Assembly: GCA_035514415.1 (NCBI GenBank)
Contig: DATKBC010000009.1
Span: 1 to 42,016 of the forward strand
Direction: 5' to 3'
Origin: Pleomorphomonadaceae bacterium
GTDB lineage: Bacteria > Chloroflexota > Limnocylindria > QHBO01
Length of the DNA stretch: 42,016 bases
Shown: one piece after another, positions 18,874 to 28,554 of the stretch
Layout: each line of letters begins with the position of its first letter
How positions within the stretch are numbered: position 1 is the first letter of the stretch
Position numbers and translations under genes: made by a program
Notes under the pieces: model-generated
The model's input: the letters and a program-made list of their open reading frames with translations, nothing else
Databases searched by the model: none
What the model was told of the DNA's origin: nothing

Positions 18874-20904
18874 ATGCCCGCCGATCAGCTTCGGCCCATC
18901 ACCGCCCTCTTTGCCGACATCACCGGATCCACCGGCCTCGGCGAGCGCCTGGCACCGGACGAGGTCAAGGCGCTCATTGGGGAGTGCGTCACCCGCATGA
19001 GCGGCGCGGTCGAGGACTTCGGGGGCACGGTGCAGGCCTACCAGGGCGACGGCATCTGCGCCTACTTCGGCGTCCCCACCGCCCACGAGGACGACCCCGA
19101 GCGCGCCGCACGGGCGGCACTGCGAATCGTCGACCTGATGGCGGCGTATGGCCGAGAAGTGGAGGCCGCCTGGGGCATCGCGGGCCTGGGAGTGCGGGTG
19201 GGGGTGAACAGCGGTCAGGCGGGGGTGGGGACGGTCGGGGCAGCAGACCCGCAGACCGTGGCGCTGGGAGACGCGACGAACATCGCCGCGCGGCTGGAGG
19301 CCGCCGCCGAGCCCGGAACGATCGCGGTCGGGGAGGCTACCGCACGACGTCTCGCCGGCCGGTTCATCACCCAGCCTCTCGGACCGCTGCACGTCAAGGG
19401 CCGCGAGGAGCCGGTCAAGGCCTGGAGGCTGATCGGCCCGCAATCGGCGACCCCGGCAGCCGGCGCCCCTGCGACTGGCGAGCCAGCAGCGCACCGCCCG
19501 TTGGTCGGGCGCGATCTCGAGCTCGGACGGCTGAAGACGACCCTCGACCAGTTGGCGGATGGCCAAGGCCAGGTTGTGCTCATGGTGGGCGAAGCCGGGA
19601 TTGGCAAGACGCACCTCCTGGCCGAGATGCGAAGCATCGGCGGTGGACGGGTAACCTGGCTCGAGGGGCACTGCCTGTCGTATGGCGCCCGCTCCCCCTT
19701 CGGACCATTCGTCGAGATGCTGCGCAGTTGGTTGGGCATTCCTGACGGAGAGCCCGATCTGGCCGTCCGGACCCGTCTCCGGGCTCGACTGGGTGCTGAT
19801 GGCGCGAATTGGCTCCCGGAGCTGGCCCGCCTCTTGGGCATCCGCCTGGATGCCGATGCCGAGGGCGCGCTGGCGGCGCTGTCCCCGCCCGAGCTGGGCG
19901 CCCAGTTGCGTGCCGCCTACATCGAATGGTTGCGGTCGGTGGCCGCGAATGGGCCACTGGCCGTGGCGCTGGAGGACGTGAACTGGGCCGACGAGTCATC
20001 CGCCGAGCTAGCGGCCGACGTGATGGCCCTAACCGATCGGTCGCCGATCGGCGTGGTCCTGACCCTGCGGCCCGAAACGGGGACGGCTGGCTGGGGCCTG
20101 CGCACCCACGCCCTGAGCGACTTCAGCCATCGGTTGACGAGCATCGACCTGCCGCCCCTCGACCTGGCGTCCGCCGAAGAGCTGGCGACCCAACTCGTGC
20201 CGGGCGACGGTTTGGATCCCGGGACGCGCCGCACGCTGGCCGAGGTCAGCGAGGGCAATCCGCTGTTCCTCGAGGAGCTGCTGGCGCGCCTGCAGGAGAC
20301 CGGTGCGCTGGCCCATCACGAAGCGTGGACCCTGACCGTGCCCCGCAATGTCCTGCCGCCCGCGCTCGAGGGGTTGCTGGTGGCCCGGATCGACCATCTC
20401 CCGGCCGAGGTGCGGAGTGTGAGCGAAGCAGCGGCGGTGATTGGCCGCCAGTTCAGCCGCACGATCCTGGAAGGTGTGGTCGACGAGCCCGATGCCGCTC
20501 TGGAGGCGCTCCTGCGCGCCGGGATCATCGTCGAGCGTGGACGGTACCCGGACCAGATCTACGAATTCCGCCACGGCTTGCTGCACGAGGCCGTCCTGGG
20601 CACTCTGACCGATGCCCGCCGCGCCGAGCTGCACCTGGCCACCGCCCGCGCCTGCGAAGCGAGATATGCGGCAGCCCTGGACAGCCACCTGGAGGAAGTA
20701 GCCCACCACTACGCACGGGCCCATGACCTCGGCAAAGCGCTCGAATATCTTGAACGTGGCGCGGAACGGGCCGCCGAGCTGGGCGCCAACGACGAGGCCG
20801 GTCGGCTCTGGCTACGCGCCTTGCGCGCCGCCAATCGGCTGAACGACGAGCCCGCCGCGGAGCGCATTCGCGACCACATGACGGCGGTCGCGCCCGACAC
20901 CTAG
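18874..20904 (+). CDS. class III adenylate/guanylate cyclase domain fused to a STAND/AAA ATPase and a helical (TPR-like) C-terminus
   Basis: Cyclase blocks ALFADITGSTGL, GDGICAYFG, RVGVNSGQAGVG, GDATNIAARLE. P-loop MVGEAGIGKTHLL. The C-terminal helical repeats include HHYARAHDLGKALEYLERGAERA. Starts 3 nt after the dehydratase stop. Confidence 0.85.
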   Translation: MPADQLRPITALFADITGSTGLGERLAPDEVKALIGECVTRMSGAVEDFGGTVQAYQGDGICAYFGVPTAHEDDPERAARAALRIVDLMAAYGREVEAAWGIAGLGVRVGVNSGQAGVGTVGAADPQTVALGDATNIAARLEAAAEPGTIAVGEATARRLAGRFITQPLGPLHVKGREEPVKAWRLIGPQSATPAAGAPATGEPAAHRPLVGRDLELGRLKTTLDQLADGQGQVVLMVGEAGIGKTHLLAEMRSIGGGRVTWLEGHCLSYGARSPFGPFVEMLRSWLGIPDGEPDLAVRTRLRARLGADGANWLPELARLLGIRLDADAEGALAALSPPELGAQLRAAYIEWLRSVAANGPLAVALEDVNWADESSAELAADVMALTDRSPIGVVLTLRPETGTAGWGLRTHALSDFSHRLTSIDLPPLDLASAEELATQLVPGDGLDPGTRRTLAEVSEGNPLFLEELLARLQETGALAHHEAWTLTVPRNVLPPALEGLLVARIDHLPAEVRSVSEAAAVIGRQFSRTILEGVVDEPDAALEALLRAGIIVERGRYPDQIYEFRHGLLHEAVLGTLTDARRAELHLATARACEARYAAALDSHLEEVAHHYARAHDLGKALEYLERGAERAAELGANDEAGRLWLRALRAANRLNDEPAAERIRDHMTAVAPDT

Positions 20905-20940: not shown

Positions 20941-22824
20941 TCAGCGCTCCGCCACGGCGACCCAGACCGTTTCGCCCGACACGGCAATCCCGACCGGCGC
21001 GCCTCCCACTGTGATCGTGACCACGACCTCGTTGGTCGCAGAGTCGATGCGGGTCACGGTTCCGTCGCCTCCGTTGGCAACCCAAACCCCGCCGGCCCCG
21101 ATCGCGATGCCGGCCGGCCGGGATCCTACCGGCACCCGCACCTGGTCACGCGACCTGGTGTCGTAACGGACCACGGCATTCCCGGCCCGGTCAACGATCC
21201 ATAGCGCTCCGGCGTCCACGTCGAGTGCGAGGGCACCCGGCGTGAAGCCGAGGGCGATGGGAGCGTCGGCGCTGGTCAGGCCAATCGCCAAGCGCGACAG
21301 GCTCTGGTCCAGGCTGTTCGCAACCCACACCACGCCGCCCCCGGCTGCCACCGCAACCGGCTCGGCTCCGACGTTGATCGGGTCATTCTCCAAACGCAAC
21401 CTTCCAGCATCGATCTGGGCCACGCTGTCGGTCTGGGTAATGACCCACAGGAACGAGTCACCCAGGGCCAGAGCTCCAGGTCGGAAGAGAAGGGCCAGCG
21501 TGGTGGGTCCGCGGCTTGGGTTCTCAGCGTCGATCTCGGACAGCGTCTCGGCCGTCGTATTGGCGACCCAAACCAGACCCTCAGCCGCGCCCGCCACCAC
21601 GGCCCCGGGCCCGGCCCCGACCGGGATGGACGTGACCTCGTGGGCCTCCGTCGCGGCCACCCGCGAGACGCTGCCAGCTGAGAAATGAGTCACCCAGGCC
21701 GCGGTCGCATCCGCGGCGATCGCCGTCGGCTCGTTCGCGAGCCCAGCGCCCAGGGATGCCTGGTTGGTCGTGGTGTCGATGATCGCCACCCCGTTACCGG
21801 CGACCACCGGAGCCGCGGACTGGTTGCTCAGCCAGAGGACGTAGCCCCCAATCGCCAGAGCCGCGACCGCCCCGGCGGAACCGAAGCCAATTAGCAGCAG
21901 CCGGCGGCGGGATTGAGCCGCGGAGCGGGCGCGGCGGACGGCGACCGGCTGCGACCCGGTTCCCATAGTCGCGCCCGTGGTTCGAACCAGATCCTCGGCA
22001 AGGTCGCCGCACGAGTCATAGCGGTCTGCGGGCTTCTTGGCCGCCGCCCGGGCCAGGGCCGCGTCCAGCTCGGATCGCAGATTCGGATCCACCGCCTCGC
22101 CGACCGACGGGAACGGGTCGCGCAGGTGCGCATACAGGGTCGCGACATCCGTTTCGCGCTCGAATGGCCGATGCCCGGTCAGGCACTCGTAGACGAGGCA
22201 CGCCAACGAGTACTGGTCCGCACGGGCATCCACCGGGCGGCCCTCGATCTGCTCGGGCGCAACGTACGCGATGGTCCCCAGGAAGGCTGACGATCCGGTC
22301 ACGCCCGATTCGGACAGGACCCGCTTGGTGAGGCCGAAGTCGCCCAGGTAGGCGTGCTCGCCACGGCCGGCGCCACGGGCCGGGAGCAGGACGTTGCTGG
22401 GCTTGACGTCGCGGTGGACGAGACCAGCCTCGTGCGCCGCGTCCAACGCGCTGGCGACCTGGGCCACGATGCGGGCCGTGCGTGCCGGCTCCAGCCGCCC
22501 GTCGCGGGCGATCATGGTCGCCAGGTCCACGCCATCCACGAACCGCATGGCGATGTACAGAACGCCGTCCGCCTCCCCGGCGTCGTAGATCGGGACAACG
22601 TTCGGGTGGTCCAGCGAACCGGCCGTGCGGGACTCCCGCAGGAAGCGCTCCCGGAACTTCGGCTCGCGCGCGATCTGGGGCGCGACGACCTTGAGCGCCA
22701 CCTTGCGCCCCAGGCGCAGGTGCTCGGCCCGGTACACGACGCCCATTCCGCCCCGGCCGATGACCTCCTCGACCTGGTAGCCGGCGACCTCGCGCCCGAG
22801 GTAGCTGTCCGGGTCGACGGTCAT
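20941..22824 (-). CDS. Ser/Thr protein kinase with one TM helix and an extracytoplasmic beta-propeller repeat domain
   Basis: Kinase blocks GRGGMGVVYRAEH, VALKV, HRDVKPSNVLL, DFGLTK, APEQ. TM segment LLLIGFGSAGAVAALAIGGYVLW. The C-terminus has repeated V-W-V-A-N / G-x-V-x-R-I-D units of YVTN/NHL type. Confidence 0.9.
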   Translation of the reverse strand: MTVDPDSYLGREVAGYQVEEVIGRGGMGVVYRAEHLRLGRKVALKVVAPQIAREPKFRERFLRESRTAGSLDHPNVVPIYDAGEADGVLYIAMRFVDGVDLATMIARDGRLEPARTARIVAQVASALDAAHEAGLVHRDVKPSNVLLPARGAGRGEHAYLGDFGLTKRVLSESGVTGSSAFLGTIAYVAPEQIEGRPVDARADQYSLACLVYECLTGHRPFERETDVATLYAHLRDPFPSVGEAVDPNLRSELDAALARAAAKKPADRYDSCGDLAEDLVRTTGATMGTGSQPVAVRRARSAAQSRRRLLLIGFGSAGAVAALAIGGYVLWLSNQSAAPVVAGNGVAIIDTTTNQASLGAGLANEPTAIAADATAAWVTHFSAGSVSRVAATEAHEVTSIPVGAGPGAVVAGAAEGLVWVANTTAETLSEIDAENPSRGPTTLALLFRPGALALGDSFLWVITQTDSVAQIDAGRLRLENDPINVGAEPVAVAAGGGVVWVANSLDQSLSRLAIGLTSADAPIALGFTPGALALDVDAGALWIVDRAGNAVVRYDTRSRDQVRVPVGSRPAGIAIGAGGVWVANGGDGTVTRIDSATNEVVVTITVGGAPVGIAVSGETVWVAVAER

Positions 22825-22832
22825 CGCGGCGC

Positions 22833-23894
22833 TTAGCCTTCCTGGCCCTGGAGCCCGGCCAGGAAGCTGACCGCGTTGGCACCGATGGCGTCCAGTGCGT
22901 AGCCACCTTCCTGGAGAGCGATCACCGGCAGGTCCAGCGCGCCGATGGCGGCCCCGATTCGGCGGTAGTCATCGGTGGTGATCGCGAAATCGGCAATCGG
23001 GTCGCGATAGAACGTGTCGAAACCCAACGACAGGACCACGGGCGCATCGGGGTCGTGGTCGCGGATGGCCTTCAGACCCACGTCCAGAGCGGCCAGGTAG
23101 GTGGCTATGTCGGTTCCCTCGGGAAGCGGCAAGTTGAGGTTCATGCCCTCTCCCGCTCCGAACCCGATCTCGTCGGCGTATCCGGAGTAGTACGGGTAGG
23201 CGCGGGCCGGGTCGCCATGCAGGGAGGCGTACAGCACGTCGTGCCGATCCCAGAACAGCTGCTGGGTGCCGTTGCCGTGGTGGTAGTCGATATCCAGGAT
23301 GGCGATCCGGGACGCTCCGCCACGGGACAGGGCCTGGGCCACGATGGCCGCGTTGTTGAAAAAGCAGTAGCCGCCGTACAGGGCGCGCCCCGCATGGTGG
23401 CCCGGGGGCCGGCACAGACCGTAGGCCAGGTGCGCCCCGCCCAGGGCCCGGTCCAATGCGGTCAGGGCCACGTCGACCGCCACTCGCGCCGCGTGATAGG
23501 TGCCGGCCACGATGGGCGTCGCGGTATCAAACGTGTAGGAGAACACCCGACGGCCTGGTCCGGGCAGACCCGTCGCATGACCGGCGGCGAACCCGGTCGT
23601 CAGAAACGTGTCCGGGAGGAGCGGCTGGGTTCCGTCCGTGAGGCCGGCCGCCAGGGCCTCATCCCAGGCCACCGCCAGCACATCCAGCAGCTCGCGATCG
23701 TGCACGGCCAGGATCGGCTCCTCGCCATGCTCGGTCGGGTCCTCGAACCGGTACCCGCCCGCCTCCACCAGCGCCTGCTCGATCTCGACCGCGCGGGCCG
23801 GCACCTCGTAGCCGGGTATGGGGCGGCCGCGCTCGACCTCGACCAGGTCATCGTGGGCGAGATGGGCGTCCGATCGGATGACAGGGACCGGCAT
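22833..23894 (-). CDS. histone deacetylase / acetoin-utilisation / acetylpolyamine amidohydrolase family protein
   Basis: Blocks RPPGHHA, YCFFNNAAI, ILDIDYHHGNGTQ, GFDTFYRDP. Lies 8 nt upstream of the kinase gene on the same strand. Confidence 0.85.
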   Translation of the reverse strand: MPVPVIRSDAHLAHDDLVEVERGRPIPGYEVPARAVEIEQALVEAGGYRFEDPTEHGEEPILAVHDRELLDVLAVAWDEALAAGLTDGTQPLLPDTFLTTGFAAGHATGLPGPGRRVFSYTFDTATPIVAGTYHAARVAVDVALTALDRALGGAHLAYGLCRPPGHHAGRALYGGYCFFNNAAIVAQALSRGGASRIAILDIDYHHGNGTQQLFWDRHDVLYASLHGDPARAYPYYSGYADEIGFGAGEGMNLNLPLPEGTDIATYLAALDVGLKAIRDHDPDAPVVLSLGFDTFYRDPIADFAITTDDYRRIGAAIGALDLPVIALQEGGYALDAIGANAVSFLAGLQGQEG

Positions 23895-23931
23895 GGGCGC
23901 CTCGGAGTGTACGGGTAGACTGCCCGGACCG

Positions 23932-25590
23932 ATGGGCAGCCTCGCCAGTTACCGGCGCGTCTTCGCCAACCCCGCCCTGGCGCGTCTCATGATCGGGGAG
24001 TTCGTGTCCTCCATCGGGGATTGGCTGTACCTGGTCGCGCTGCTGGTCGTGGTCTACAACTCCGGCGCCTCGCCAGTCGTGCTGGGGATCGTGGGCGCAG
24101 CCCGCATCGTCCCCTACATCCTGCTGTCGGTCCCGGCCGGGATCGTGGCCGATCGGTACGACCGGCGCCTGATCCTGATCGGCACCGACCTCGCCCGCGG
24201 GATCATCATGCTGGCGCTCACTGCGCTCATCCTGGTCGACGGGCCGATCATCGCGGTCGTTGTCCTCAGCCTGCTGGCTGCCTGCTTCTCGGCCTTCTTC
24301 AGCCCGGCCATCGGCTCGCTCATCCCGAGCCTGGTGGCCGATGAGCGGGAACTGGGGCCCGCCAATGCCGCCTGGTCGAGCCTGGACAACCTGGCGTTCA
24401 TCATCGGTCCGGCGGTGGCGGCCATCCTCATCACAGTCGGCAGCATCCCGCTGGCCTTCTTCCTGAACGCCGTGACGTTCGTGATCATCGCCGCCGTCCT
24501 GTGGCGGCTGCCAAAGGATCGGGGACGCGCCGTGGTGGCGCGCGCCGCCTCGACCGAGGCGAGCCCGGTCGGGTTCCGGGATTTGGTCCGGCCGGTGATC
24601 CGACCCCTGTCCGGCCTGGGCGTGATCAACCTGGTCGACGGCTTCGTGTCCGGCGGGCTGGCCGTGCTCACCGTCGTGATCGCGGTCGAGGTGCTCGGGG
24701 CAGGCGACGCGGGAACGGGCTGGCTGAACGCCGCCATCGGGCTCGGCGGACTCATCGGCGCCTTCATCGCCGGGCCCATGACACTCCGTCGGCGACTCGA
24801 CATCCCGCTGGCGGTGGGCGGGGTGACGCTCGGCGTGGGAGTCATCCTGGTTGGGCAGTCGACGGTCCTGCTGGCGGCGATTGCCGCGATGGCGGTTGCC
24901 ACCGCCGGTATGCTGCTGCTCGAGGTAGTGGCGACCACGATCTTCCAGCGGGCGGTCCCCGACTCGATCCGGGGGCGAACCATCGGCGCCATGGACACCG
25001 TGACCGTATCGGCCTATGCGCTGGGTGCGTTCCTGGCGCCCATCCTGGCCGCCGCGATCGGCCCGGTCGTGGTCCTGCTCGGGTTCGGGATCGCCATGGT
25101 TGCCGCCACCCTGGTCGGGACGATCCTGGTGGGGAGGTCCGCGGTGTCGGAGATGGACCCGGGCGCGGAGCGGTTCGTCCGCATACCGCTGTTCGATGGG
25201 CTGGCCCCCGCCGCGCTGGAGCAGGCCGCCCGCCACCTGAACCGCGTGCGCGTGACGCCAGGCCAGGTCGTGGTGCGCCAGGGCGACCCGGCCGATCGCT
25301 TCTTCCACGTCCTGGACGGGACGTTCGAGGTAGCCCAGACCAAGGACCCGGGAGGTGCTCCCCGGTTCCTGCGGACGCTGGGCCCGGACGACGTGTTCGG
25401 CGAGATCGGGCTGCTGCGTGGCGTGCCGCGGACGGCCACGGTCACTGCAACCGGCGACGGAACCCTGCTCGCCCTGGACGGGGGTCGCTTCCTGGAGCTG
25501 GTCGGCGCCGGACCCGGACTGACCTCGCGGCTGCTGGACGTGCACCGCGGGGCGTCGGCCCGCTTGGACGGATCTCGGACTGATGGCTGA
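23932..25590 (+). CDS. MFS transporter fused to a C-terminal cyclic-nucleotide-binding domain
   Basis: The ATG at 23932 is in frame with track ORF 23818-25590. About 12 hydrophobic segments with an MFS signature (GIVADRYDRRLILIG). The C-terminal CNB domain reads IPLFDGLAPAALEQAARHL...GDPADRFFHVLDGTFEV...FGEIGLLRGVPRTATVTA. Confidence 0.85.
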   Translation: MGSLASYRRVFANPALARLMIGEFVSSIGDWLYLVALLVVVYNSGASPVVLGIVGAARIVPYILLSVPAGIVADRYDRRLILIGTDLARGIIMLALTALILVDGPIIAVVVLSLLAACFSAFFSPAIGSLIPSLVADERELGPANAAWSSLDNLAFIIGPAVAAILITVGSIPLAFFLNAVTFVIIAAVLWRLPKDRGRAVVARAASTEASPVGFRDLVRPVIRPLSGLGVINLVDGFVSGGLAVLTVVIAVEVLGAGDAGTGWLNAAIGLGGLIGAFIAGPMTLRRRLDIPLAVGGVTLGVGVILVGQSTVLLAAIAAMAVATAGMLLLEVVATTIFQRAVPDSIRGRTIGAMDTVTVSAYALGAFLAPILAAAIGPVVVLLGFGIAMVAATLVGTILVGRSAVSEMDPGAERFVRIPLFDGLAPAALEQAARHLNRVRVTPGQVVVRQGDPADRFFHVLDGTFEVAQTKDPGGAPRFLRTLGPDDVFGEIGLLRGVPRTATVTATGDGTLLALDGGRFLELVGAGPGLTSRLLDVHRGASARLDGSRTDG

Positions 25591-26293
25591 CGATTCGGGC
25601 CTCAAGTTGCTGGCCCGGTGCCCGCTCTTTGCGGGCGTCCTGCCGGACGACCTCCATGAAGTGGCCCGTCACCTGCGCCGCCGTCGCTTCCGCCGGGGAG
25701 AGGTGATCTTCCACCAGGGAGATCCCGGTGACGCGCTGCACATCGTGGCATCGGGATCGGTGAAGATCGTGCTGCCCTCGGCCGAAGGGGAAGAAGCAAT
25801 CATCGCCACGGTGCACACCGGCGACTTCTTCGGTGAGCTGGCCCTGCTCGACGGGGCACCCCGCTCGGCGACCGCCGCAGCGGTGGAGGTCACCGAGACC
25901 CTGAGCCTGCCCCGCGAGACGTTCCTCGAGGAGATCGGTCGCAGCGCGAGCCTGCGGGACGTCCTGCTCCGATCGCTGGCCGGCGAGCTGCGTCGATTGA
26001 CCAGCCACGTCGAAGAGCTGCACTTCCTGGATCTCGCCGGCCGTCTGGCCAGCCGATTGTTGAGCCTGGCCCGCGAGGCGGAACCTGGACCCCAACGAAC
26101 GCCGCAGGGAACGTTGGAGGCAACGCTCGACTGGCCCTTCACACAGTCCGATCTGGCTGCCATGATTGGGGCAACGCGGCAGAGCGTGAACCGGCTCCTC
26201 AGCGACCTCGTCGAACGGGGGCTGATTCGCATCGATCGCGACACGTTGGTCATCACCGATCTCGAACGGCTGGAGCGGCAAGTCGCCCGCTGA
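25583..26293 (+). CDS. Crp/Fnr family transcriptional regulator
   Basis: CNB domain (CPLFAGVLPDDL, GDPGDALHIVASGSVKI, FFGELALLDGAPRSATAAA) plus a C-terminal HTH (TQSDLAAMIGATRQSVNRLLSDLVERGLI). The start overlaps the MFS stop by 8 nt (ATGGCTGA). Confidence 0.9.
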   Translation: MADDSGLKLLARCPLFAGVLPDDLHEVARHLRRRRFRRGEVIFHQGDPGDALHIVASGSVKIVLPSAEGEEAIIATVHTGDFFGELALLDGAPRSATAAAVEVTETLSLPRETFLEEIGRSASLRDVLLRSLAGELRRLTSHVEELHFLDLAGRLASRLLSLAREAEPGPQRTPQGTLEATLDWPFTQSDLAAMIGATRQSVNRLLSDLVERGLIRIDRDTLVITDLERLERQVAR

Positions 26294-26308
26294 AATCTGG
26301 TCGGCCCG

Positions 26309-26324
26309 TGTCACCCAGTTGACA
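26309..26324. promoter_or_regulatory. Crp/Fnr-like palindrome TGTCA-N6-TGACA, overlapping a perfect TTGACA -35-like hexamer (26319-26324)
   Basis: Read directly: tgtcacccagttgaca. It lies 16 nt after the crp-family stop and 111 nt before the ATG at 26435. Confidence 0.4.
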
Positions 26325-26434
26325 GCCGGACTGTCGCCCGGGTGATCGTGAGGTCGGGGAAAGCTAACCTAACGTCAGGCCCGAGATTCCGGGCCATTCG
26401 GTCCGGGAAGAGTATCGGGAGGCACCAGTCAACA

Positions 26435-26839
26435 ATGGACAAGAACATCAGAGTCCGGGGCAAGATCTCCGGGGACGACGACGTCGAGGGCCACGCCCAT
26501 ACGCGGGCAGCCGCCGAGGCCGTCACGCGGGTCAACACCAAGGCCCGCAAGCGCGAGACCGGTGACGACACCGAGGGCCACGCCCACAAGCGGGCCAACG
26601 TGAAGGCCGTCACGCGGGTCAACACCAAGGCGCGCAAGCGCGAGACCGATGACGACACCGAGGGTCACGCGCGCAAGCGGGCCAACGTCAAGGCCGTCAC
26701 GCGGGTCAACACCAAGGCGCGCAAGCGCGAGACCGATGACGACACCGAGGGCCACGCGCGCAAGCGAGCCAACCTGAAGGCCGCAGCGGCCCCCAATGCC
26801 GCGGCAGCCGCGGCAGCCGCGGCAGCCAAGAAGCGGTAA
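26435..26839 (+). CDS. small (134 aa) highly charged tandem-repeat protein with a poly-Ala/Lys tail, function unknown
   Basis: The ATG at 26435 has GGGAGG 12 nt upstream. There are 3.5 in-frame 29-aa repeats of D-D-[TV]-E-G-H-A-[HR]-K-R-A-N-V-K-A-V-T-R-V-N-T-K-A-R-K-R-E-T, and the tail is AAAPNAAAAAAAAAAKKR. A strong hairpin follows the gene. Confidence 0.7.
   Translation: MDKNIRVRGKISGDDDVEGHAHTRAAAEAVTRVNTKARKRETGDDTEGHAHKRANVKAVTRVNTKARKRETDDDTEGHARKRANVKAVTRVNTKARKRETDDDTEGHARKRANLKAAAAPNAAAAAAAAAAKKR
26474..26782 (+). repeat. 87-bp tandem repeat, 3.5 copies (26474, 26561, 26648, partial from 26735); followed by a 9-bp GCCGCGGCA x3 microrepeat at 26798-26824
   Basis: Copies 2 and 3 differ at only about six positions by eye. 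Copy 1 diverges in its middle. The period is an exact multiple of 3 and is in frame with the CDS. Confidence 0.9.
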
Positions 26840-26857
26840 CGCAAGCTTCCCGAGCAG

Positions 26858-26889
26858 GTAAGGCGGCGGGGCTCTCCCCGCCGCCTTAC
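26858..26889 (+). terminator. perfect 14-bp GC-rich hairpin with a 4-nt loop (intrinsic-terminator-like, no U tract)
   Basis: gtaaggcggcgggg-ctct-ccccgccgccttac, starting 19 nt after the stop of the repeat-protein gene. Confidence 0.6.
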
Positions 26890-26900
26890 GCTATGCCCCG

Positions 26901-27695
26901 ATGACCAGGGAGCCCGCTCCGGAGTCGCTCGCGCAGGCCCTGGCCATCGTCCGCGCCGGGGCGGAACGCGCCGCAGTTGCAGGACGGTTGCACCCCGACG
27001 GGGAGCAGCGACTTCTGCAGTCGATCGTCGACGCCACGGTTCGACTCTTCGACGCGGAGGCGGCATCCATCGCCCTCTTCGAGCGCGATCCGGATCGGCT
27101 CGAATTTCGGGTTGCGGCCGGTCCGCAGGGGGCGGGCGCCGTCGGCAAGAGCGTCAAACCCAGCCAGGGCGTCGCCGGGTTCGTGTTCTCGACCGGGCAG
27201 GCGCTGGCCCTCTCCGACGTGGCCTCGGATCCGCGCTTCGATCGCAAGACCGCCGAGAAGACCGGCTACGTGCCGCGCTCGATCGCCGCAGTCCCGCTCA
27301 GCGACGATGAGGGCACACACGGCGTGCTGCAGGTCCTCGACAAGCGGGGCTCGGCGACGTTCGACCTGCGCGACATGGAGCTGCTGGGGGTCTTCGCCTC
27401 CCAGGCCGCAACCGCCATCGCCGTCACGCGCGCCCAGCGCGAACTGCCACGTCTCCTGCGCTCCGCGTTCGACCGCGCCGGCAGCGGAGGGCTGAGCGAG
27501 GAGCAGCTCGCGGCCCTGGTGAGTGCCGCGTCAGCCGACCTGGACCTGGAGGACGACTCGCCGTACTGGCGCCTGGCGGACCAGGTGGCCCGGCTGCGTC
27601 AGCTCGGCGGGCCGGAGATGAGCCTGGTCAGCGACATCCTGGCCGCGGTCGCGGCCCACGCCGCCGCCAGCCGCGGACGCTCTCGCCGGCGGTAG
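26901..27695 (+). CDS. GAF domain-containing protein with a helical C-terminal extension
   Basis: GAF-type blocks LLQSIVDATVRLFDAEAASIALFE, GVAGFVFSTGQALALSDVASDPRF, RSIAAVPLSDDEGTHGVLQVLDKR. No signal peptide or TM segment. Confidence 0.8.
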   Translation: MTREPAPESLAQALAIVRAGAERAAVAGRLHPDGEQRLLQSIVDATVRLFDAEAASIALFERDPDRLEFRVAAGPQGAGAVGKSVKPSQGVAGFVFSTGQALALSDVASDPRFDRKTAEKTGYVPRSIAAVPLSDDEGTHGVLQVLDKRGSATFDLRDMELLGVFASQAATAIAVTRAQRELPRLLRSAFDRAGSGGLSEEQLAALVSAASADLDLEDDSPYWRLADQVARLRQLGGPEMSLVSDILAAVAAHAAASRGRSRRR

Positions 27696-27702
27696 CCGGA
27701 AG

Positions 27703-28554
27703 ATGTCAGTCGACCTGGAGGACCTCCCCGCCTGGGCCGAGCCCTTCGCGGCGGCCGACCGGCTCGCCCGCCGCGCCGGCCTGCGGCGCATCGACCGGGC
27801 GTGGGCCTGGGGCGGGGCCACCGGCAAGGGTGTCCGGGTGGCCATCATCGACAGCGGCGTCGAGGGCGACCATCCGTGGGTCGAGGGCCGGCTGGTCGAG
27901 AGCGTGGCGGTTCGCATCGACAAGAGCGGGGATGCGGAGATCGTGCCCGACGAACCCACCGACCTGTACGGCCATGGGACCGCGTGCGCGGGCATCATCG
28001 TCGGCCTCGCGCCCCAGGTCGAGATCGTCTCGGTCCGGGTCCTGAACGAGGAGCTGAAGGGCAAGGGGGCCGCGTTCGTGGAAGGCCTGTCGTGGGCCAT
28101 CGAGCGCGGAGTGCAGGTCGCGAACCTGAGTCTGTCCTCCAAGAGCGAGGCGCTGTACCCGGTCTTCCACGAGCTGGCGGACGAGGCCTATTTCCGCAAC
28201 GTCATGCTGGTCAGCGCCGCCAACAACGTGAACGTGGCGTCGTACCCGTCGCTGTTCAGCAGTGTCGTCTCGGTGGCCGCACATGGCGAGCCCGACCCGT
28301 GGCGCCTGTACTACAACCCGAAGCCGCCGGTCGAGTTCGGAGCCTGGGGCGTGGATGTCCCGATCGCGTGGAAGGACGGGACCGAGACGGTGGCCACCGG
28401 CAACTCCTTCGCTGCTCCCCACGTGGCGGCCATGGCGGCCCTCATCGTGTCCAAGCACCCGCGGCTGACCCCGTTCGAGCTGAAGGCCATCCTGGCCGCC
28501 GTAGCCGATAACCCGCGTCCCGCAGCGCGCCGCACGCGCCGGACGCCCGGCTAG
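27703..28554 (+). CDS. S8 (subtilisin-family) serine peptidase, minimal and apparently cytoplasmic
   Basis: Triad blocks in D-H-S order: VAIIDSGV, HGTACAGII, GNSFAAPHVAAMAALI. Oxyanion-region SAANN. 283 aa with an acidic N-terminus and no signal peptide or propeptide. Lies 7 nt after the GAF gene. Confidence 0.85.
   Translation: MSVDLEDLPAWAEPFAAADRLARRAGLRRIDRAWAWGGATGKGVRVAIIDSGVEGDHPWVEGRLVESVAVRIDKSGDAEIVPDEPTDLYGHGTACAGIIVGLAPQVEIVSVRVLNEELKGKGAAFVEGLSWAIERGVQVANLSLSSKSEALYPVFHELADEAYFRNVMLVSAANNVNVASYPSLFSSVVSVAAHGEPDPWRLYYNPKPPVEFGAWGVDVPIAWKDGTETVATGNSFAAPHVAAMAALIVSKHPRLTPFELKAILAAVADNPRPAARRTRRTPG

What the first reader, a model, noticed from the sequence alone, without database searches (positions are those of the whole stretch)
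26435..26839. Small hyper-charged protein built from 3.5 in-frame 87-bp tandem repeats with an Ala/Lys tail
The 134-aa product has no hydrophobic core. It consists of alternating acidic His-containing patches (DDDVEGHAH / DDTEGHA[HR]) and basic patches (KRANVKAVTRVNTKARKRET), followed by AAAPNAAAAAAAAAAKKR.

Copies 2 and 3 are nearly identical at the DNA level, so the array is recent or homogenised. The period is kept at exactly 29 codons, which argues that the reading frame is under selection.

The gene has its own SD, a Crp-like site upstream and a strong hairpin downstream, which is the profile of a highly expressed, regulated small gene. Possible roles:
- a nucleic-acid or ribosome-binding disordered protein (the tail resembles the Ala/Lys tails of actinobacterial HU-like proteins)
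- a metal-binding stress protein (HxH patches)
- a multi-copy precursor cut at its KR dibasic sites by the neighbouring S8 protease

I do not recognise a named family.
Basis: partly seen in the sequence, partly recalled or inferred. Interest (0 to 1): 0.7.

Follow-up and report, generated by a model that had tools for sequence, protein, structure and literature searches.

The report
Repeat protein of a cAMP-linked protease cassette
The small repeat gene is real. It belongs to a large, unnamed family of proteins built from a repeated acidic "DD-T/V-E-G-H" motif, and these genes almost always sit beside a cyclic-nucleotide regulator, a GAF-plus-subtilisin protease pair and a transporter, which suggests an undescribed regulated peptide-processing system in soil Chloroflexota and Actinomycetota.

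Summary
An 87-bp x 3.5 in-frame tandem array (26477-26783) lies inside a 134-aa ORF (26435-26839). The ORF has coding-type GC3, a Shine-Dalgarno (SD) sequence, an upstream palindrome and a strong downstream hairpin.

It is one member of a large unannotated family: at least 390 clusters at 50% identity, with no Pfam or NCBIfam model. The only invariant feature is [DE]2-3-D-[TV]-E-G-H followed by a short basic patch. This unit is repeated 2-13 times with variable spacers.

In Chloroflexota (Limnocylindria) and Actinomycetota the gene sits in a conserved cassette:
- a Crp-family regulator, usually directly upstream
- a GAF protein followed directly by an S8 protease that shows no signal peptide or propeptide
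- an MFS_3 transporter fused to a cNMP-binding domain
- often a class III cyclase

A TGTCA-N6-TGACA operator upstream of the repeat gene is conserved across loci, including unlinked paralogs.

Close relatives carry 2-6 repeats, always in frame. Most family members are acidic, so the basic, HU-like character of this copy is specific to its lineage.

Best reading (inferred, about 0.4): a Crp-controlled multi-copy substrate or precursor that the GAF-regulated subtilase cuts into per-repeat peptides, which the MFS may export. No cleavage, binding or export has been shown.

The parts
18874..20904 (+). Class III nucleotidyl cyclase fused to an AAA_16 ATPase. It belongs to the extended neighbourhood and is a possible source of the cyclic nucleotide.
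   Evidence: Pfam Guanylate_cyc 2.7e-20 and AAA_16 1.4e-22. Homologous cyclases lie next to the cassette in L004 and L008/9 and occur in 11 related loci.
23818..25590 (+). MFS_3-type transporter with a C-terminal cyclic-nucleotide-binding domain. Its start codon is uncertain, and its stop overlaps the Crp start.
   Evidence: Pfam MFS_1 3e-32, MFS_3 5.7e-24, cNMP_binding 5e-20. The same architecture occurs in L001, L004, L006 and L008. A homolog of at least 100 bits is present in 41 of 87 genome chunks that carry a repeat gene.
25583..26293 (+). Crp/Fnr-family regulator (cNMP-binding domain + HTH_Crp_2) directly upstream of the repeat gene.
   Evidence: Pfam hits 2.7e-27 and 3e-19. Annotated as HUG94596.1, a Crp/Fnr family regulator. 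A Crp homolog lies on the same strand, less than 400 nt upstream of the repeat gene, in 32 of 49 loci where it is seen.
26309..26324 (.). Perfect palindromic operator TGTCA-N6-TGACA, the presumed binding site of the adjacent Crp paralog. Its right half is TTGACA, which resembles a -35 promoter hexamer.
   Evidence: It is the only match in the window. TGTNA-N6-TNACA occurs 8 times in 1.0 Mb of related loci, and all 8 lie within 450 nt upstream of a repeat gene. A match of at least 9/10 to the consensus is found in 29 of 94 upstream regions versus 12 of 470 control segments. The site is conserved in the alignment of relatives.
26332..26347 (.). Second, degenerate operator-like site TGTCGCCCGGGTGATC (8/10), 23 nt downstream of the first.
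   Evidence: Read from the sequence. The block CTGTCGCC.GGGTGATCG is invariant in 5 relatives, including the divergent L003. Function is inferred only.
26378..26395 (+). Conserved 5'-UTR stem-loop GGCCCG-AGATTC-CGGGCC.
   Evidence: Invariant block in alignment A2, including L003. There is no Rfam family in 26000-27100. Function unknown.
26417..26422 (+). Shine-Dalgarno GGGAGG, 12 nt before the ATG.
   Evidence: Sequence. Invariant in all 5 aligned relatives.
26435..26839 (+). The repeat-protein gene: 134 aa with four DD[VT]EGH motifs.
   Evidence: ORF. GC3 of 0.90. Homologs found.
26477..26783 (+). 87-bp x 3.5 tandem array, i.e. 29-codon units.
   Evidence: Tandem Repeats Finder score 474, 0% indels. 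Unit comparison.
26798..26827 (+). 9-bp x 3.3 micro-repeat that encodes the poly-Ala tail.
   Evidence: Tandem Repeats Finder, 100% matches. The tail length and sequence vary among close relatives.
26858..26889 (+). 14-bp GC-rich hairpin between the repeat gene and the GAF gene, likely a terminator or attenuator.
   Evidence: -34.1 kcal/mol, z = -3.2. Identical in 6 close relatives. There is no T-tract, so the simple terminator scan does not call it.
26901..27695 (+). GAF-domain protein (264 aa) of the cyclic-nucleotide-type GAF group. It is always directly upstream of the S8 gene.
   Evidence: Pfam GAF_2 9.5e-18. Its nearest solved relatives are the GAF domains of PDE2/5/10 and CyaB2 and of the HD-GYP protein 4mcw. 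GAF precedes S8 on the same strand in 53 of 55 loci and is never fused to it.
27703..28554 (+). Compact subtilisin-like S8 serine protease (283 aa) with no signal peptide and no I9 propeptide.
   Evidence: Pfam Peptidase_S8 3.9e-29. It aligns to mature subtilisin Carlsberg/KerA from residue ~29. The D/H/S motifs IIDSG, HGT and GNSFAAP are visible in the sequence, and the triad motifs are kept in 46 of 58 orthologs. NCBIfam scores for mycosin (125 bits) and QhpE (106 bits) are both below their cut-offs.

Best explanation
Shown:
- 26435-26839 is a real protein-coding gene.
- It belongs to a widespread, unannotated family of small proteins without a globular fold. They are made of 2-13 copies of the unit [acidic run]-D-[T/V]-E-G-H-[short basic patch].
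- The family is a fixed component of a conserved cyclic-nucleotide-linked cassette in Chloroflexota (Limnocylindria) and Actinomycetota: a Crp-family regulator, a GAF protein followed directly by an S8 protease that shows no signal peptide or propeptide, an MFS_3 transporter with a cNMP-binding domain, and often a class III cyclase.
- A conserved TGTCA-N6-TGACA palindrome lies upstream of the repeat gene.

Inferred mechanism:
1. Cyclic nucleotide made by the nearby cyclase acts on the Crp paralog, which binds the palindrome and switches the repeat gene on or off. The strong hairpin after the gene lets it be expressed at a different level from GAF-S8.
2. The repeat protein is the dedicated substrate of the GAF-regulated intracellular subtilase. 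The protease recognises each DD[TV]EGH-plus-basic unit and cuts the polyprotein into one peptide per repeat. Repeat number therefore sets the yield.
3. The cNMP-gated MFS may export the peptides or a shorter fragment of them.

The basic 20-residue spacers and the Ala/Lys tail of this particular copy are lineage-specific decoration, not the conserved function.
For: Real gene:
- Tandem array with no indels.
- GC3 of 0.90.
- Motif conserved at the amino-acid level in at least 390 clusters at 50% identity.
- Close relatives have 2, 3, 4, 5 or 6 units, always in frame.

Cassette:
- The same five gene types occur around homologs that are only 34-42% identical, in different gene orders.
- 66 of 87 uncentred 8-kb genome chunks with a repeat gene carry an S8, GAF or Crp homolog, against 2 of 20 chunks with only chance pattern hits.
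- GAF directly precedes S8 in 53 of 55 loci.

Regulation:
- All 8 occurrences of TGTNA-N6-TNACA in 1.0 Mb of loci lie upstream of repeat genes.
- 29 of 94 upstream regions match the consensus at 9/10 or better, against 12 of 470 controls. This includes paralogs not linked to the cassette.
- The operator, SD and hairpin are conserved in relatives.

Substrate/precursor reading:
- The S8 keeps its catalytic motifs in 46 of 58 orthologs.
- It starts about 18 residues before the mature-subtilisin core, so it has no propeptide, and its N-terminus shows no signal-like hydrophobic stretch.
- Among characterised families, one of its two best NCBIfam matches is QhpE, a cytoplasmic subtilase that removes a leader from a co-encoded peptide before export (PMC7876137).
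- The repeat protein has no fold of its own.
- The invariant part is a short linear motif and the spacers vary freely.
- 52 of 75 family proteins stop 3-8 residues after the last GH, exactly where the basic patch ends. In internal units the K/R frequency is 0.31-0.41 up to that position and 0.12, 0.04 and 0.02 just after it. In 10 proteins the terminal tail is identical to the internal post-GH segments. The natural C-terminus therefore coincides with a unit boundary, as in polyprotein precursors.
- Subfamilies have conserved leader-like N-termini, and several loci carry two precursor-like paralogs.
- An exporter-type MFS is part of the cassette.
Against: - No cleavage, binding, export or expression has been observed. 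Every mechanistic step rests on gene neighbourhood and sequence pattern.
- No single position after GH is strictly basic, so a defined cleavage site cannot be named.
- MFS transporters normally move small molecules. Export of highly charged 15-29-residue peptides would be unusual.
- The near-invariance of DD[TV]EGH across two phyla is atypical for signalling peptides and for RiPP (ribosomally made, modified peptide) cores. It would equally fit a docking or metal-binding motif.
- The cassette contains no modifying enzyme.
- 21 of 87 repeat genes showed no cassette gene within their 8-kb chunk. One relative (L005) sits beside an HD_5 phosphohydrolase instead.
- The GAF ligand is unknown.
Confidence: 0.4

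Rival explanations
1. The repeat protein is not cut into products. It is a multivalent partner of the cassette proteins: each DD[TV]EGH unit is a docking motif or pseudo-substrate for the propeptide-less S8 or its GAF partner. In this reading it acts as an inhibitor, buffer or scaffold, or as a short-lived regulator whose level is set by cNMP-controlled transcription and proteolysis.
For: It uses the same synteny evidence as the main model. A short invariant linear motif with free spacers and freely varying copy number is typical of multivalent docking proteins. The same motif occurs in a separate family of membrane proteins, sometimes next to the S8. There it precedes segments with alternating hydrophobic residues, so it looks like a recognised element rather than a released product. 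The S8 lacks an inhibitory propeptide of its own.
Against: This model gives no role to the conserved MFS exporter. The coincidence of the natural C-terminus with the unit boundary and the leader-like N-termini fit a precursor better. No interaction data exist.
Confidence: 0.2
2. The conserved unit is a metal-binding site made of carboxylates plus a Gly-His. The protein, or peptides derived from it, would buffer, chaperone or carry a divalent metal, as a stress protein or a ribosomally made metallophore. This can coexist with proteolytic processing.
For: The only invariant residues are Asp, Glu, Gly and His: D100, E93, G100 and H100, preceded by 2-3 further D/E. Most members are strongly acidic with about 6% His. 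From general knowledge, Gly-His and X-X-His peptides such as GHK and the albumin N-terminus DAHK bind Cu(II) and Ni(II). This is a recalled resemblance, not a test.
Against: No metal transporter, metal-sensing regulator or metalloenzyme recurs in the neighbourhoods inspected. All the regulatory parts point to cyclic nucleotides, not metals. The 3D arrangement could not be examined.
Confidence: 0.15
3. It is a nucleic-acid- or ribosome-binding basic disordered protein, related in function to the Ala/Lys tails of actinobacterial HU-like proteins.
For: The window protein is very basic (net +14, pI 10.5) and ends in an Ala/Lys-rich tail. AlphaFold2 predicts long charged helices.
Against: 72 of 79 family members are net negative, with a median charge of -16 and median pI of 4.5. 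The tail is absent or different in relatives that are more than 80% identical. There is no HU or other DNA-binding domain. This model does not explain the conserved link to a protease and a transporter.
Confidence: 0.05
4. It is not a functional protein gene. The array would be non-coding repetitive DNA, an opposite-strand gene or an assembly artefact.
For: ORFs of 108 and 115 aa exist on the opposite strand. The exact 134-aa and 165-aa products are not in the protein collection.
Against: Only the + frame has coding-type GC3. Hundreds of homologs conserve the amino-acid motif while DNA, spacers and copy number vary. Independent contigs carry the same gene with conserved SD, operator and hairpin.
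Confidence: 0.01

Closest known systems
Tandemly duplicated Phr pheromone propeptides of Bacillus Rap-Phr systems, matured by the subtilisin-family proteases subtilisin, Epr and Vpr (PMC11343458)
   Same: A small, unstructured ribosomal propeptide carries several tandem copies of a short unit. S8-family proteases mature it. It is encoded next to its regulator.
   Different: Phr propeptides have Sec signal peptides and are cut outside the cell by housekeeping proteases, and their receptor is a TPR Rap protein. Here there is no signal peptide and the dedicated protease appears cytoplasmic. The regulator is a Crp paralog, and the motif is nearly invariant across phyla rather than strain-specific. 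No homology was detected.
QhpE/QhpC of quinohemoprotein amine dehydrogenase (PMC7876137)
   Same: A compact cytoplasmic subtilisin-like protease without a propeptide is encoded with its single peptide substrate and an exporter. QhpE is the second-best NCBIfam match of the window S8 (106 bits).
   Different: The score is below the 165-bit cut-off. The cassette has no radical-SAM enzyme (QhpD) and no flavoprotein (QhpG). QhpC is not repetitive, and its exporter is an ABC transporter, not an MFS.
Cyanobactin pathways: the PatE multi-core precursor with the PatA/PatG S8 proteases
   Same: One precursor carries several cassettes flanked by conserved recognition sequences, and dedicated S8 proteases excise them.
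   Different: The PatA-family match is only 23.8 bits against a cut-off of 421. There is no heterocyclase, macrocyclase domain or DUF. In cyanobactins the cores are hypervariable and the flanks are conserved, and which part would be the product here is unknown.
Eukaryotic polyprotein peptide precursors cut by kexin/furin-type S8 proteases, such as yeast alpha-factor, fungal Kex2-processed repeat proteins and the TRH precursor (from general knowledge)
   Same: The precursor carries tandem identical short units separated by basic residues, copy number varies, and a subtilase does the cutting. The last unit ends at or near the natural C-terminus.
   Different: Those are processed in the secretory pathway at strict KR/RR sites. 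Here the system is bacterial, apparently cytoplasmic and GAF-associated, and has only a loosely basic patch.
Bacillus-type intracellular subtilisin proteases (ISPs)
   Same: The S8 has no signal peptide and no classical propeptide, with a short N-terminal extension of about 18 residues before the catalytic Asp region. A PDB 'intracellular serine protease' (7y6m) is among the hits.
   Different: ISPs are general proteases that are not encoded with a GAF partner or a dedicated repeat protein. Whether the extension is inhibitory here is untested.
Ala/Lys-rich C-terminal tails of actinobacterial HU-like proteins (Hlp/MDP1)
   Same: The Ala/Lys-rich, low-complexity composition of residues ~108-134.
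   Different: There is no HU domain. The tail arises from a local 9-bp repeat and is not conserved in close relatives.

Membership tests
Any curated protein family (Pfam-A, NCBIfam, PADLOC) | The profile HMM match reaches the family cut-off. | tested here: not met
   The window protein's best Pfam hit has E = 0.52, and it has no NCBIfam or PADLOC hit. Ten diverse relatives give nothing significant. Every source name seen is 'hypothetical protein'.
DD[TV]EGH-repeat small-protein family (defined here) | At least 2 copies of [DE]2-3-D-[TV]-E-G-H followed by a basic patch, in a small protein without a hydrophobic core. | tested here: met
   The window protein has four motifs. Profile A1 retrieves 235 and 390 relatives in the two databases. 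The motif logo comes from 277 sequence contexts.
DD[TV]EGH-repeat small-protein family (defined here) | The gene is encoded in or near the Crp / GAF-S8 / MFS-cNMP cassette and has the TGTCA-N6-TGACA operator upstream. | tested here: met
   All four partner genes flank it in the window, and the perfect operator lies at 26309-26324.
Cyanobactin (PatE-type) precursor system | A PatA/PatG-family protease above the family cut-off, and a heterocyclase or oxidase/DUF partner in the cluster. | tested here: not met
   TIGR03895 scores 23.8 bits against a cut-off of 421. Pfam of the neighbours shows only MFS, Crp, GAF and S8.
RRNPPA (Rap-Phr-type) pheromone propeptide | An N-terminal Sec signal peptide on the propeptide and an adjacent TPR-type receptor. 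| tested here: not met
   The N-terminus MDKNIRVRGKISGDDD has no hydrophobic segment, and the protein is only 10% hydrophobic overall. The adjacent regulator is a Crp/Fnr protein, not a TPR protein.
QhpE-type leader peptidase system | A QhpE equivalog score of at least 165 bits, with radical-SAM QhpD and the QhpC substrate in the operon. | tested here: not met
   NF049966 scores 106.1 bits, below the cut-off of 165. No radical-SAM gene is present in the cassettes inspected.
Type VII secretion mycosin | An equivalog score of at least 278.75 bits, a signal peptide plus a C-terminal membrane anchor, and ESX genes nearby. | tested here: not met
   TIGR03921 scores 125.1 bits, below the cut-off. 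The 283-aa protein ends right after the catalytic domain and has no hydrophobic N- or C-terminus. No Ecc genes appear in the neighbourhoods.
HU / Hlp-type nucleoid proteins | A Bac_DNA_binding (HU) fold domain, and a basic tail conserved among orthologs. | tested here: not met
   There is no such Pfam hit. The tail is variable, and the family is mostly acidic.
Crp/Fnr regulon member (target gene of the adjacent regulator) | A 16-bp palindromic Crp/Fnr-type operator in the promoter region, conserved among orthologous promoters. | tested here: met
   Searches show the site and its conservation. The conservation of the site is shown, but binding by this Crp paralog is not.
Crp/Fnr regulon member (target gene of the adjacent regulator) | Demonstrated binding of the regulator and cNMP-dependent transcription. 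| not testable with these tools
   This needs EMSA or ChIP, plus reporter or RNA-seq experiments.
cNMP-binding GAF domains | Sequence membership in the GAF fold, with cyclic-nucleotide-binding GAFs as the closest solved relatives. | tested here: met
   Pfam GAF/GAF_2/GAF_3 hits. The top PDB matches are the GAFs of 4mcw, 5w10, CyaB2 (1ykd), PDE10A, PDE2A and PDE5.
cNMP-binding GAF domains | Actual binding of cAMP or cGMP. | not testable with these tools
   Ligand specificity cannot be read reliably from the sequence.

The most novel reading that the evidence does not exclude
The cassette is a previously unrecognised cyclic-nucleotide-gated peptide factory shared by Actinomycetota and Chloroflexota. 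The proposed steps are:
1. A class III cyclase raises cNMP.
2. A dedicated Crp paralog turns on a polyprotein gene.
3. A GAF-controlled intracellular subtilase chops the polyprotein into many identical, unmodified acidic Gly-His peptides.
4. A cNMP-gated MFS exports the peptides, which act outside the cell as a metal-binding or signalling agent.

This would be a new class of multi-copy ribosomal peptide whose production is licensed at three levels by one second messenger.
Probability: 0.2. Interest if true: 0.85.

Novelty: new variant of a known kind. Interest (0 to 1): 0.64.

Why it matters
Cyclic-nucleotide signalling in Actinomycetota and Chloroflexota involves many cyclases and cNMP-binding proteins whose outputs are mostly unknown. 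This cassette links three different cNMP-type sensor modules (Crp, an MFS-cNMP fusion and a GAF protein) to a protease and to one small, hyper-repetitive protein. That gives a concrete, testable output module.

The repeat family is large: at least 390 clusters at 50% identity, in two phyla. It has no Pfam or NCBIfam model, and the copy in this window and three Geodermatophilus copies were not found in the protein collection under the starts tried. It is the kind of small protein that standard annotation leaves unnamed.

If the protease does process the repeats, this would be a bacterial counterpart of eukaryotic kexin-cut polyprotein precursors. It would also be a new source of unmodified ribosomal peptides in abundant soil lineages. 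Cultured carriers (Geodermatophilus spp., Intrasporangium oryzae) make experiments feasible.

Tried and rejected
Searches that found nothing:
- Pfam, NCBIfam and PADLOC on the window protein and on 10 diverse relatives.
- Full-text literature search for the motif strings DTEGH, DVEGH, DDTEGH and DDVEGH: only chance hits.
- Literature searches combining GAF, subtilase, Crp, MFS and cNMP, or tandem-repeat precursor with subtilisin and actinobacteria: nothing relevant (one search failed on term length).
- Rfam on 26000-27100: nothing near any gathering score.
- tblastn against plasmids: no match.
- Exact-sequence look-ups of the 134-aa and 165-aa products: not on record. The accession gap between HUG94596 (Crp) and HUG94598 (GAF) suggests that something is annotated there, but I could not see what.

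Limited results:
- The simple promoter/terminator scan missed the hairpin because it lacks a T-tract, and it found no convincing sigma-70 promoter for the gene.
- AlphaFold2 on the single sequence gave only long helices with pTM 0.32. I treat this as 'no globular fold', not as evidence for a helical structure.

Checked and rejected:
- GAF-S8 fusions as a Rosetta-stone link: none in 58 loci.
- HU-like or nucleic-acid binding as the family function, rejected on charge statistics.
- A mycosin/T7SS link, rejected on score, missing anchors and context.
- A defence-system (Pycsar-like) link. The PADLOC hits come only from the generic cNMP-binding and subtilase domains.
- The frameshifted homolog P0004 as evidence against coding. 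Its contig (L003) also has split MFS and Crp genes.

Full report
**1. The observation**

Tandem Repeats Finder reports one outstanding array in the window: 26477-26783, period 87 bp, 3.5 copies, 90% matches, no indels, score 474. A 9-bp x 3.3 repeat at 26798-26827 follows it and encodes the Ala run.

Units 2 and 3 differ at 4 of 87 positions, and 3 of those changes are synonymous. GC by codon position (0.69/0.52/0.90) matches the flanking genes, whereas the overlapping minus-strand ORFs do not show this pattern.

The protein has 34 K+R, 20 D+E, 30 Ala and 10% hydrophobic residues. AlphaFold2 on the single sequence returns only long helices with pTM 0.32, which means no globular fold.

The gene's signals are all present:
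- the Shine-Dalgarno (SD) sequence GGGAGG (26417-26422)
- a perfect palindrome TGTCACCCAGTTGACA (26309-26324), unique in the window
- a 14-bp hairpin (26858-26889; -34 kcal/mol, z = -3.2)

The description is therefore confirmed. Two details do not hold as general features. 'HxH' is present only in the first two units, and the Ala/Lys tail differs among close relatives.

**2. It belongs to a large unannotated family**

Neither Pfam, NCBIfam nor PADLOC recognises the protein. A first homology search gave 7 relatives. They showed that what is conserved is not the 29-residue unit but a short motif. I built a profile from motif-spacer-motif segments (A1). It retrieved 235 proteins from the word-indexed database and 390 representative clusters at E <= 0.001 in the exhaustive scan of 1.84 billion representatives. 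All of them are unnamed or 'hypothetical'.

A motif logo from 277 non-identical contexts in 77 proteins reads [DE]-[DE]-[DE]-D(100%)-V/T(97%)-E(93%)-G(100%)-H(100%), followed by 3-6 loosely basic residues. Key numbers:
- Spacing between motifs is mostly 14-20 residues, so the window's 29 is at the long end.
- Copy number ranges from 2 to 13.
- 72 of 79 members are net acidic, with median charge -16 and median pI 4.5. The window protein (+14, pI 10.5) is an outlier.

Ten diverse members again hit no curated family.

**3. Close relatives and the reading frame**

The 'MDKNIRVRGK(I/V)SG...' subfamily, at 75-89% identity, occurs with 2 motifs (63-64 aa), 3 (93-95 aa), 4 (window 134 aa; L130 122 aa), 5 (155-157 aa) and 6 (181 aa). 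It is always in frame, and the tail is either ASPAKKR or Ala-rich.

The flanking non-coding DNA is much more conserved than the array. The operator, a second conserved block, a 5'-UTR stem-loop and the SD are invariant, and the downstream hairpin region is 98% identical.

The only out-of-frame copy (P0004) is on a long-read contig whose MFS and Crp genes are also fragmented, so I treat it as sequencing error.

**4. Genomic context**

In the window the gene is flanked on the same strand by four partners:
- an MFS_3 transporter with a C-terminal cNMP-binding domain (23818-25590)
- a Crp/Fnr regulator (25583-26293)
- a GAF protein (26901-27695)
- an S8 protease (27703-28554)

A class III cyclase-AAA_16 gene lies 3 kb further upstream (18874-20904).

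The same set recurs around homologs that share only the motif. In L001 the order is Crp, repeat, GAF, S8, MFS-cNMP. In L004, L006/7 and L008/9 it is GAF, S8, Crp, repeat, then a stand-alone cNMP-binding protein or cyclase, then MFS-cNMP. One relative (L005) lacks the cassette.

It returned mostly Chloroflexota (Limnocylindria and 'Chloroflexia' MAGs) and Actinomycetota: Geodermatophilus, Nocardioides, Intrasporangium, Naasia, Acidimicrobiia, Thermoleophilia/Gaiellaceae and Frankiaceae. These loci are 8-kb chunks that are not centred on the hit. Even so:
- 66 of 87 chunks with a multi-motif small ORF also contained a homolog of the window's S8, GAF or Crp (55, 55 and 49 chunks respectively; MFS in 41).
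- Only 2 of 20 chunks with merely chance pattern hits did so.
- Crp is on the same strand and within 400 nt upstream of the repeat gene in 32 of 49 cases.
- GAF directly precedes S8 in 53 of 55 loci and is never fused to it.
- Cyclase homologs occur in 11 loci.

**5. Regulation**

The palindrome is not a one-off. The pattern TGTNA-N6-TNACA occurs 8 times in 1.0 Mb of collected loci, and all 8 lie within 450 nt upstream of a repeat gene. A match of at least 9/10 to TGTCA-N6-TGACA is found in 29 of 94 upstream regions against 12 of 470 random segments of the same loci. A match of at least 8/10 is found in 73 of 94 against 49 of 470.

Paralogs that are not next to a cassette (L057, L063, L087, L102, L106) carry the site too, so they appear to belong to the same regulon. 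That the adjacent Crp paralog binds this site is an inference from its type and position.

**6. The protease and the GAF protein**

The S8 aligns to mature subtilisin Carlsberg/BPN' from about residue 29. It therefore has only an extension of about 18 residues and no I9 propeptide. Its N-terminus has no signal-like hydrophobic stretch, and the protein ends right after the catalytic domain.

The Asp, His and Ser motifs are present, and simple patterns find them in 46 of 58 orthologs. Its best curated matches are mycosin (125 bits) and QhpE (106 bits), both below their cut-offs. QhpE is a cytoplasmic subtilase that removes the leader from its co-encoded peptide substrate before export (PMC7876137).

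The GAF domain's nearest solved relatives are cyclic-nucleotide-type GAFs: PDE2/5/10, CyaB2 and the GAF of an HD-GYP protein. Its ligand is unknown.

**7. What it most likely does**

The firm facts are these:
- The protein is small, has no globular fold, and consists of a repeated short linear motif.
- Repeat number changes quickly while the frame is kept.
- Its own operator and a strong hairpin set it apart transcriptionally.
- It is tightly linked over evolution to a regulated intracellular protease and an exporter-type transporter, in a module full of cyclic-nucleotide sensors.

One extra pattern fits a modular polyprotein. 52 of 75 family proteins stop 3-8 residues after the last Gly-His, exactly where the basic patch ends. 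In internal units the K/R frequency is 0.31-0.41 up to that position and then falls to 0.12, 0.04 and 0.02. In 10 proteins the terminal tail is identical to the internal post-GH segments, for example AKQR, KQTR, VSRPR and LRAPGR. Subfamilies also share leader-like N-termini such as MDNYRRRPPMEGFSRPGQLGGEA in Limnocylindria, and several loci hold two paralogs.

I therefore favour, at about 0.4, the following model. The repeat protein is the dedicated, Crp-controlled substrate of the GAF-regulated subtilase. It is cut once per unit, and the MFS is a possible exporter of the products. Every step after 'conserved neighbourhood and operator' is inference.

The main rivals are:
- An uncut multivalent docking, pseudo-substrate or regulator role (about 0.2).
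- A metal-binding role for the carboxylate + Gly-His unit (about 0.15). This could coexist with processing.
- A nucleic-acid-binding role (about 0.05). It is disfavoured because the family is acidic.

**8. Comparison with known systems**

The functional analogues are:
- tandemly duplicated Phr propeptides matured by subtilisin-family proteases (PMC11343458)
- QhpC/QhpE
- cyanobactin PatE with PatA/PatG
- eukaryotic kexin-cut polyproteins

None is a homolog, and each membership test fails on a defining feature: signal peptide and TPR receptor, radical-SAM partner and score cut-off, heterocyclase and PatA score, or the secretory pathway. I found no description of the motif or of this cassette in the paper library.

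I rate the finding as a new variant of a known kind, namely a dedicated protease paired with a repeat precursor or substrate. It is carried by a protein family and a gene cassette that appear undescribed.

**9. Provenance**

The window is a 42,016-bp NCBI MAG contig labelled 'Pleomorphomonadaceae bacterium' (Crp HUG94596.1, GAF HUG94598.1, S8 HUG94599.1). The members of the 90%-identity clusters of its proteins come from Chloroflexota / Candidatus Limnocylindria, and 70% GC fits that lineage. The label is probably a binning error.

Noticed in passing
L118:1725-2456 (+), L125:5699-6322 (+), L001:5761-6234 (-), L069, L114, L035 and 9 other loci: A second, unrelated-looking family carries the same motif. 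These are single-pass membrane proteins of 130-380 aa. Their N-terminal ~100-aa domain holds 2-3 DD[TV]EGH motifs, each followed by a segment with alternating hydrophobic residues. The last reads '...DDDTEGHAISLHFPxxxEADAFRRRLL', followed by a TM helix and low-complexity repeats. The gene lies next to the cassette S8 in L069, L118 and L125 and 1 kb from Crp in L001. It has no Pfam hit and no copy in the window.
   Followed up: partly
whole window: The contig is deposited as 'Pleomorphomonadaceae bacterium' (an alphaproteobacterial family). This is probably a mis-binned contig.
   Followed up: partly
window 26332-26347 and 26378-26395: Two further conserved elements lie in the leader region. 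One is a second, degenerate operator-like site TGTCGCCCGGGTGATC, 23 nt after the perfect palindrome. The other is a stem-loop GGCCCG-AGATTC-CGGGCC. Both are invariant in relatives, including the divergent L003. There is no Rfam match.
   Followed up: partly
window 18874-20904 (+); also 20941-22824 (-) and 22833-23894 (-): A class III cyclase-AAA_16 protein lies 3 kb upstream of the cassette. A Ser/Thr protein kinase with a beta-propeller-like C-terminus and a histone-deacetylase-family gene, both on the opposite strand, separate it from the cassette. Cyclase-AAA_16 genes also flank the cassette in actinobacterial loci, and L003 also has a Pkinase gene nearby.
   Followed up: partly
L003:5384-5785: A homolog (P0004) whose reading frame shifts after 2.5 repeats. 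The contig is a long-read 'tig' assembly in which the MFS and Crp genes are also split into pieces, so this is most likely sequencing error rather than a true frameshift.
   Followed up: yes
L005:6001-6231: A motif-bearing small protein (P0104, 4 x DTEGH) that is not in the cassette. It sits directly downstream of an HD_5/HD phosphohydrolase gene, possibly another nucleotide-signalling link.
   Followed up: no
L016, L027, L071, L087; also L015 versus L112 in Geodermatophilus amargosae: Several genomes carry two or more repeat-protein paralogs. Some flank the cassette on both sides and some are unlinked. The unlinked copies L057, L063, L087, L102 and L106 still have the TGTC-N8-GACA operator.
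   Followed up: partly
window 25583-25590: The MFS-cNMP ORF stop overlaps the Crp start codon by 8 nt, which suggests translational coupling of transporter and regulator. GAF and S8 are 7 nt apart in the window and overlap by 4 nt in L001.
   Followed up: no
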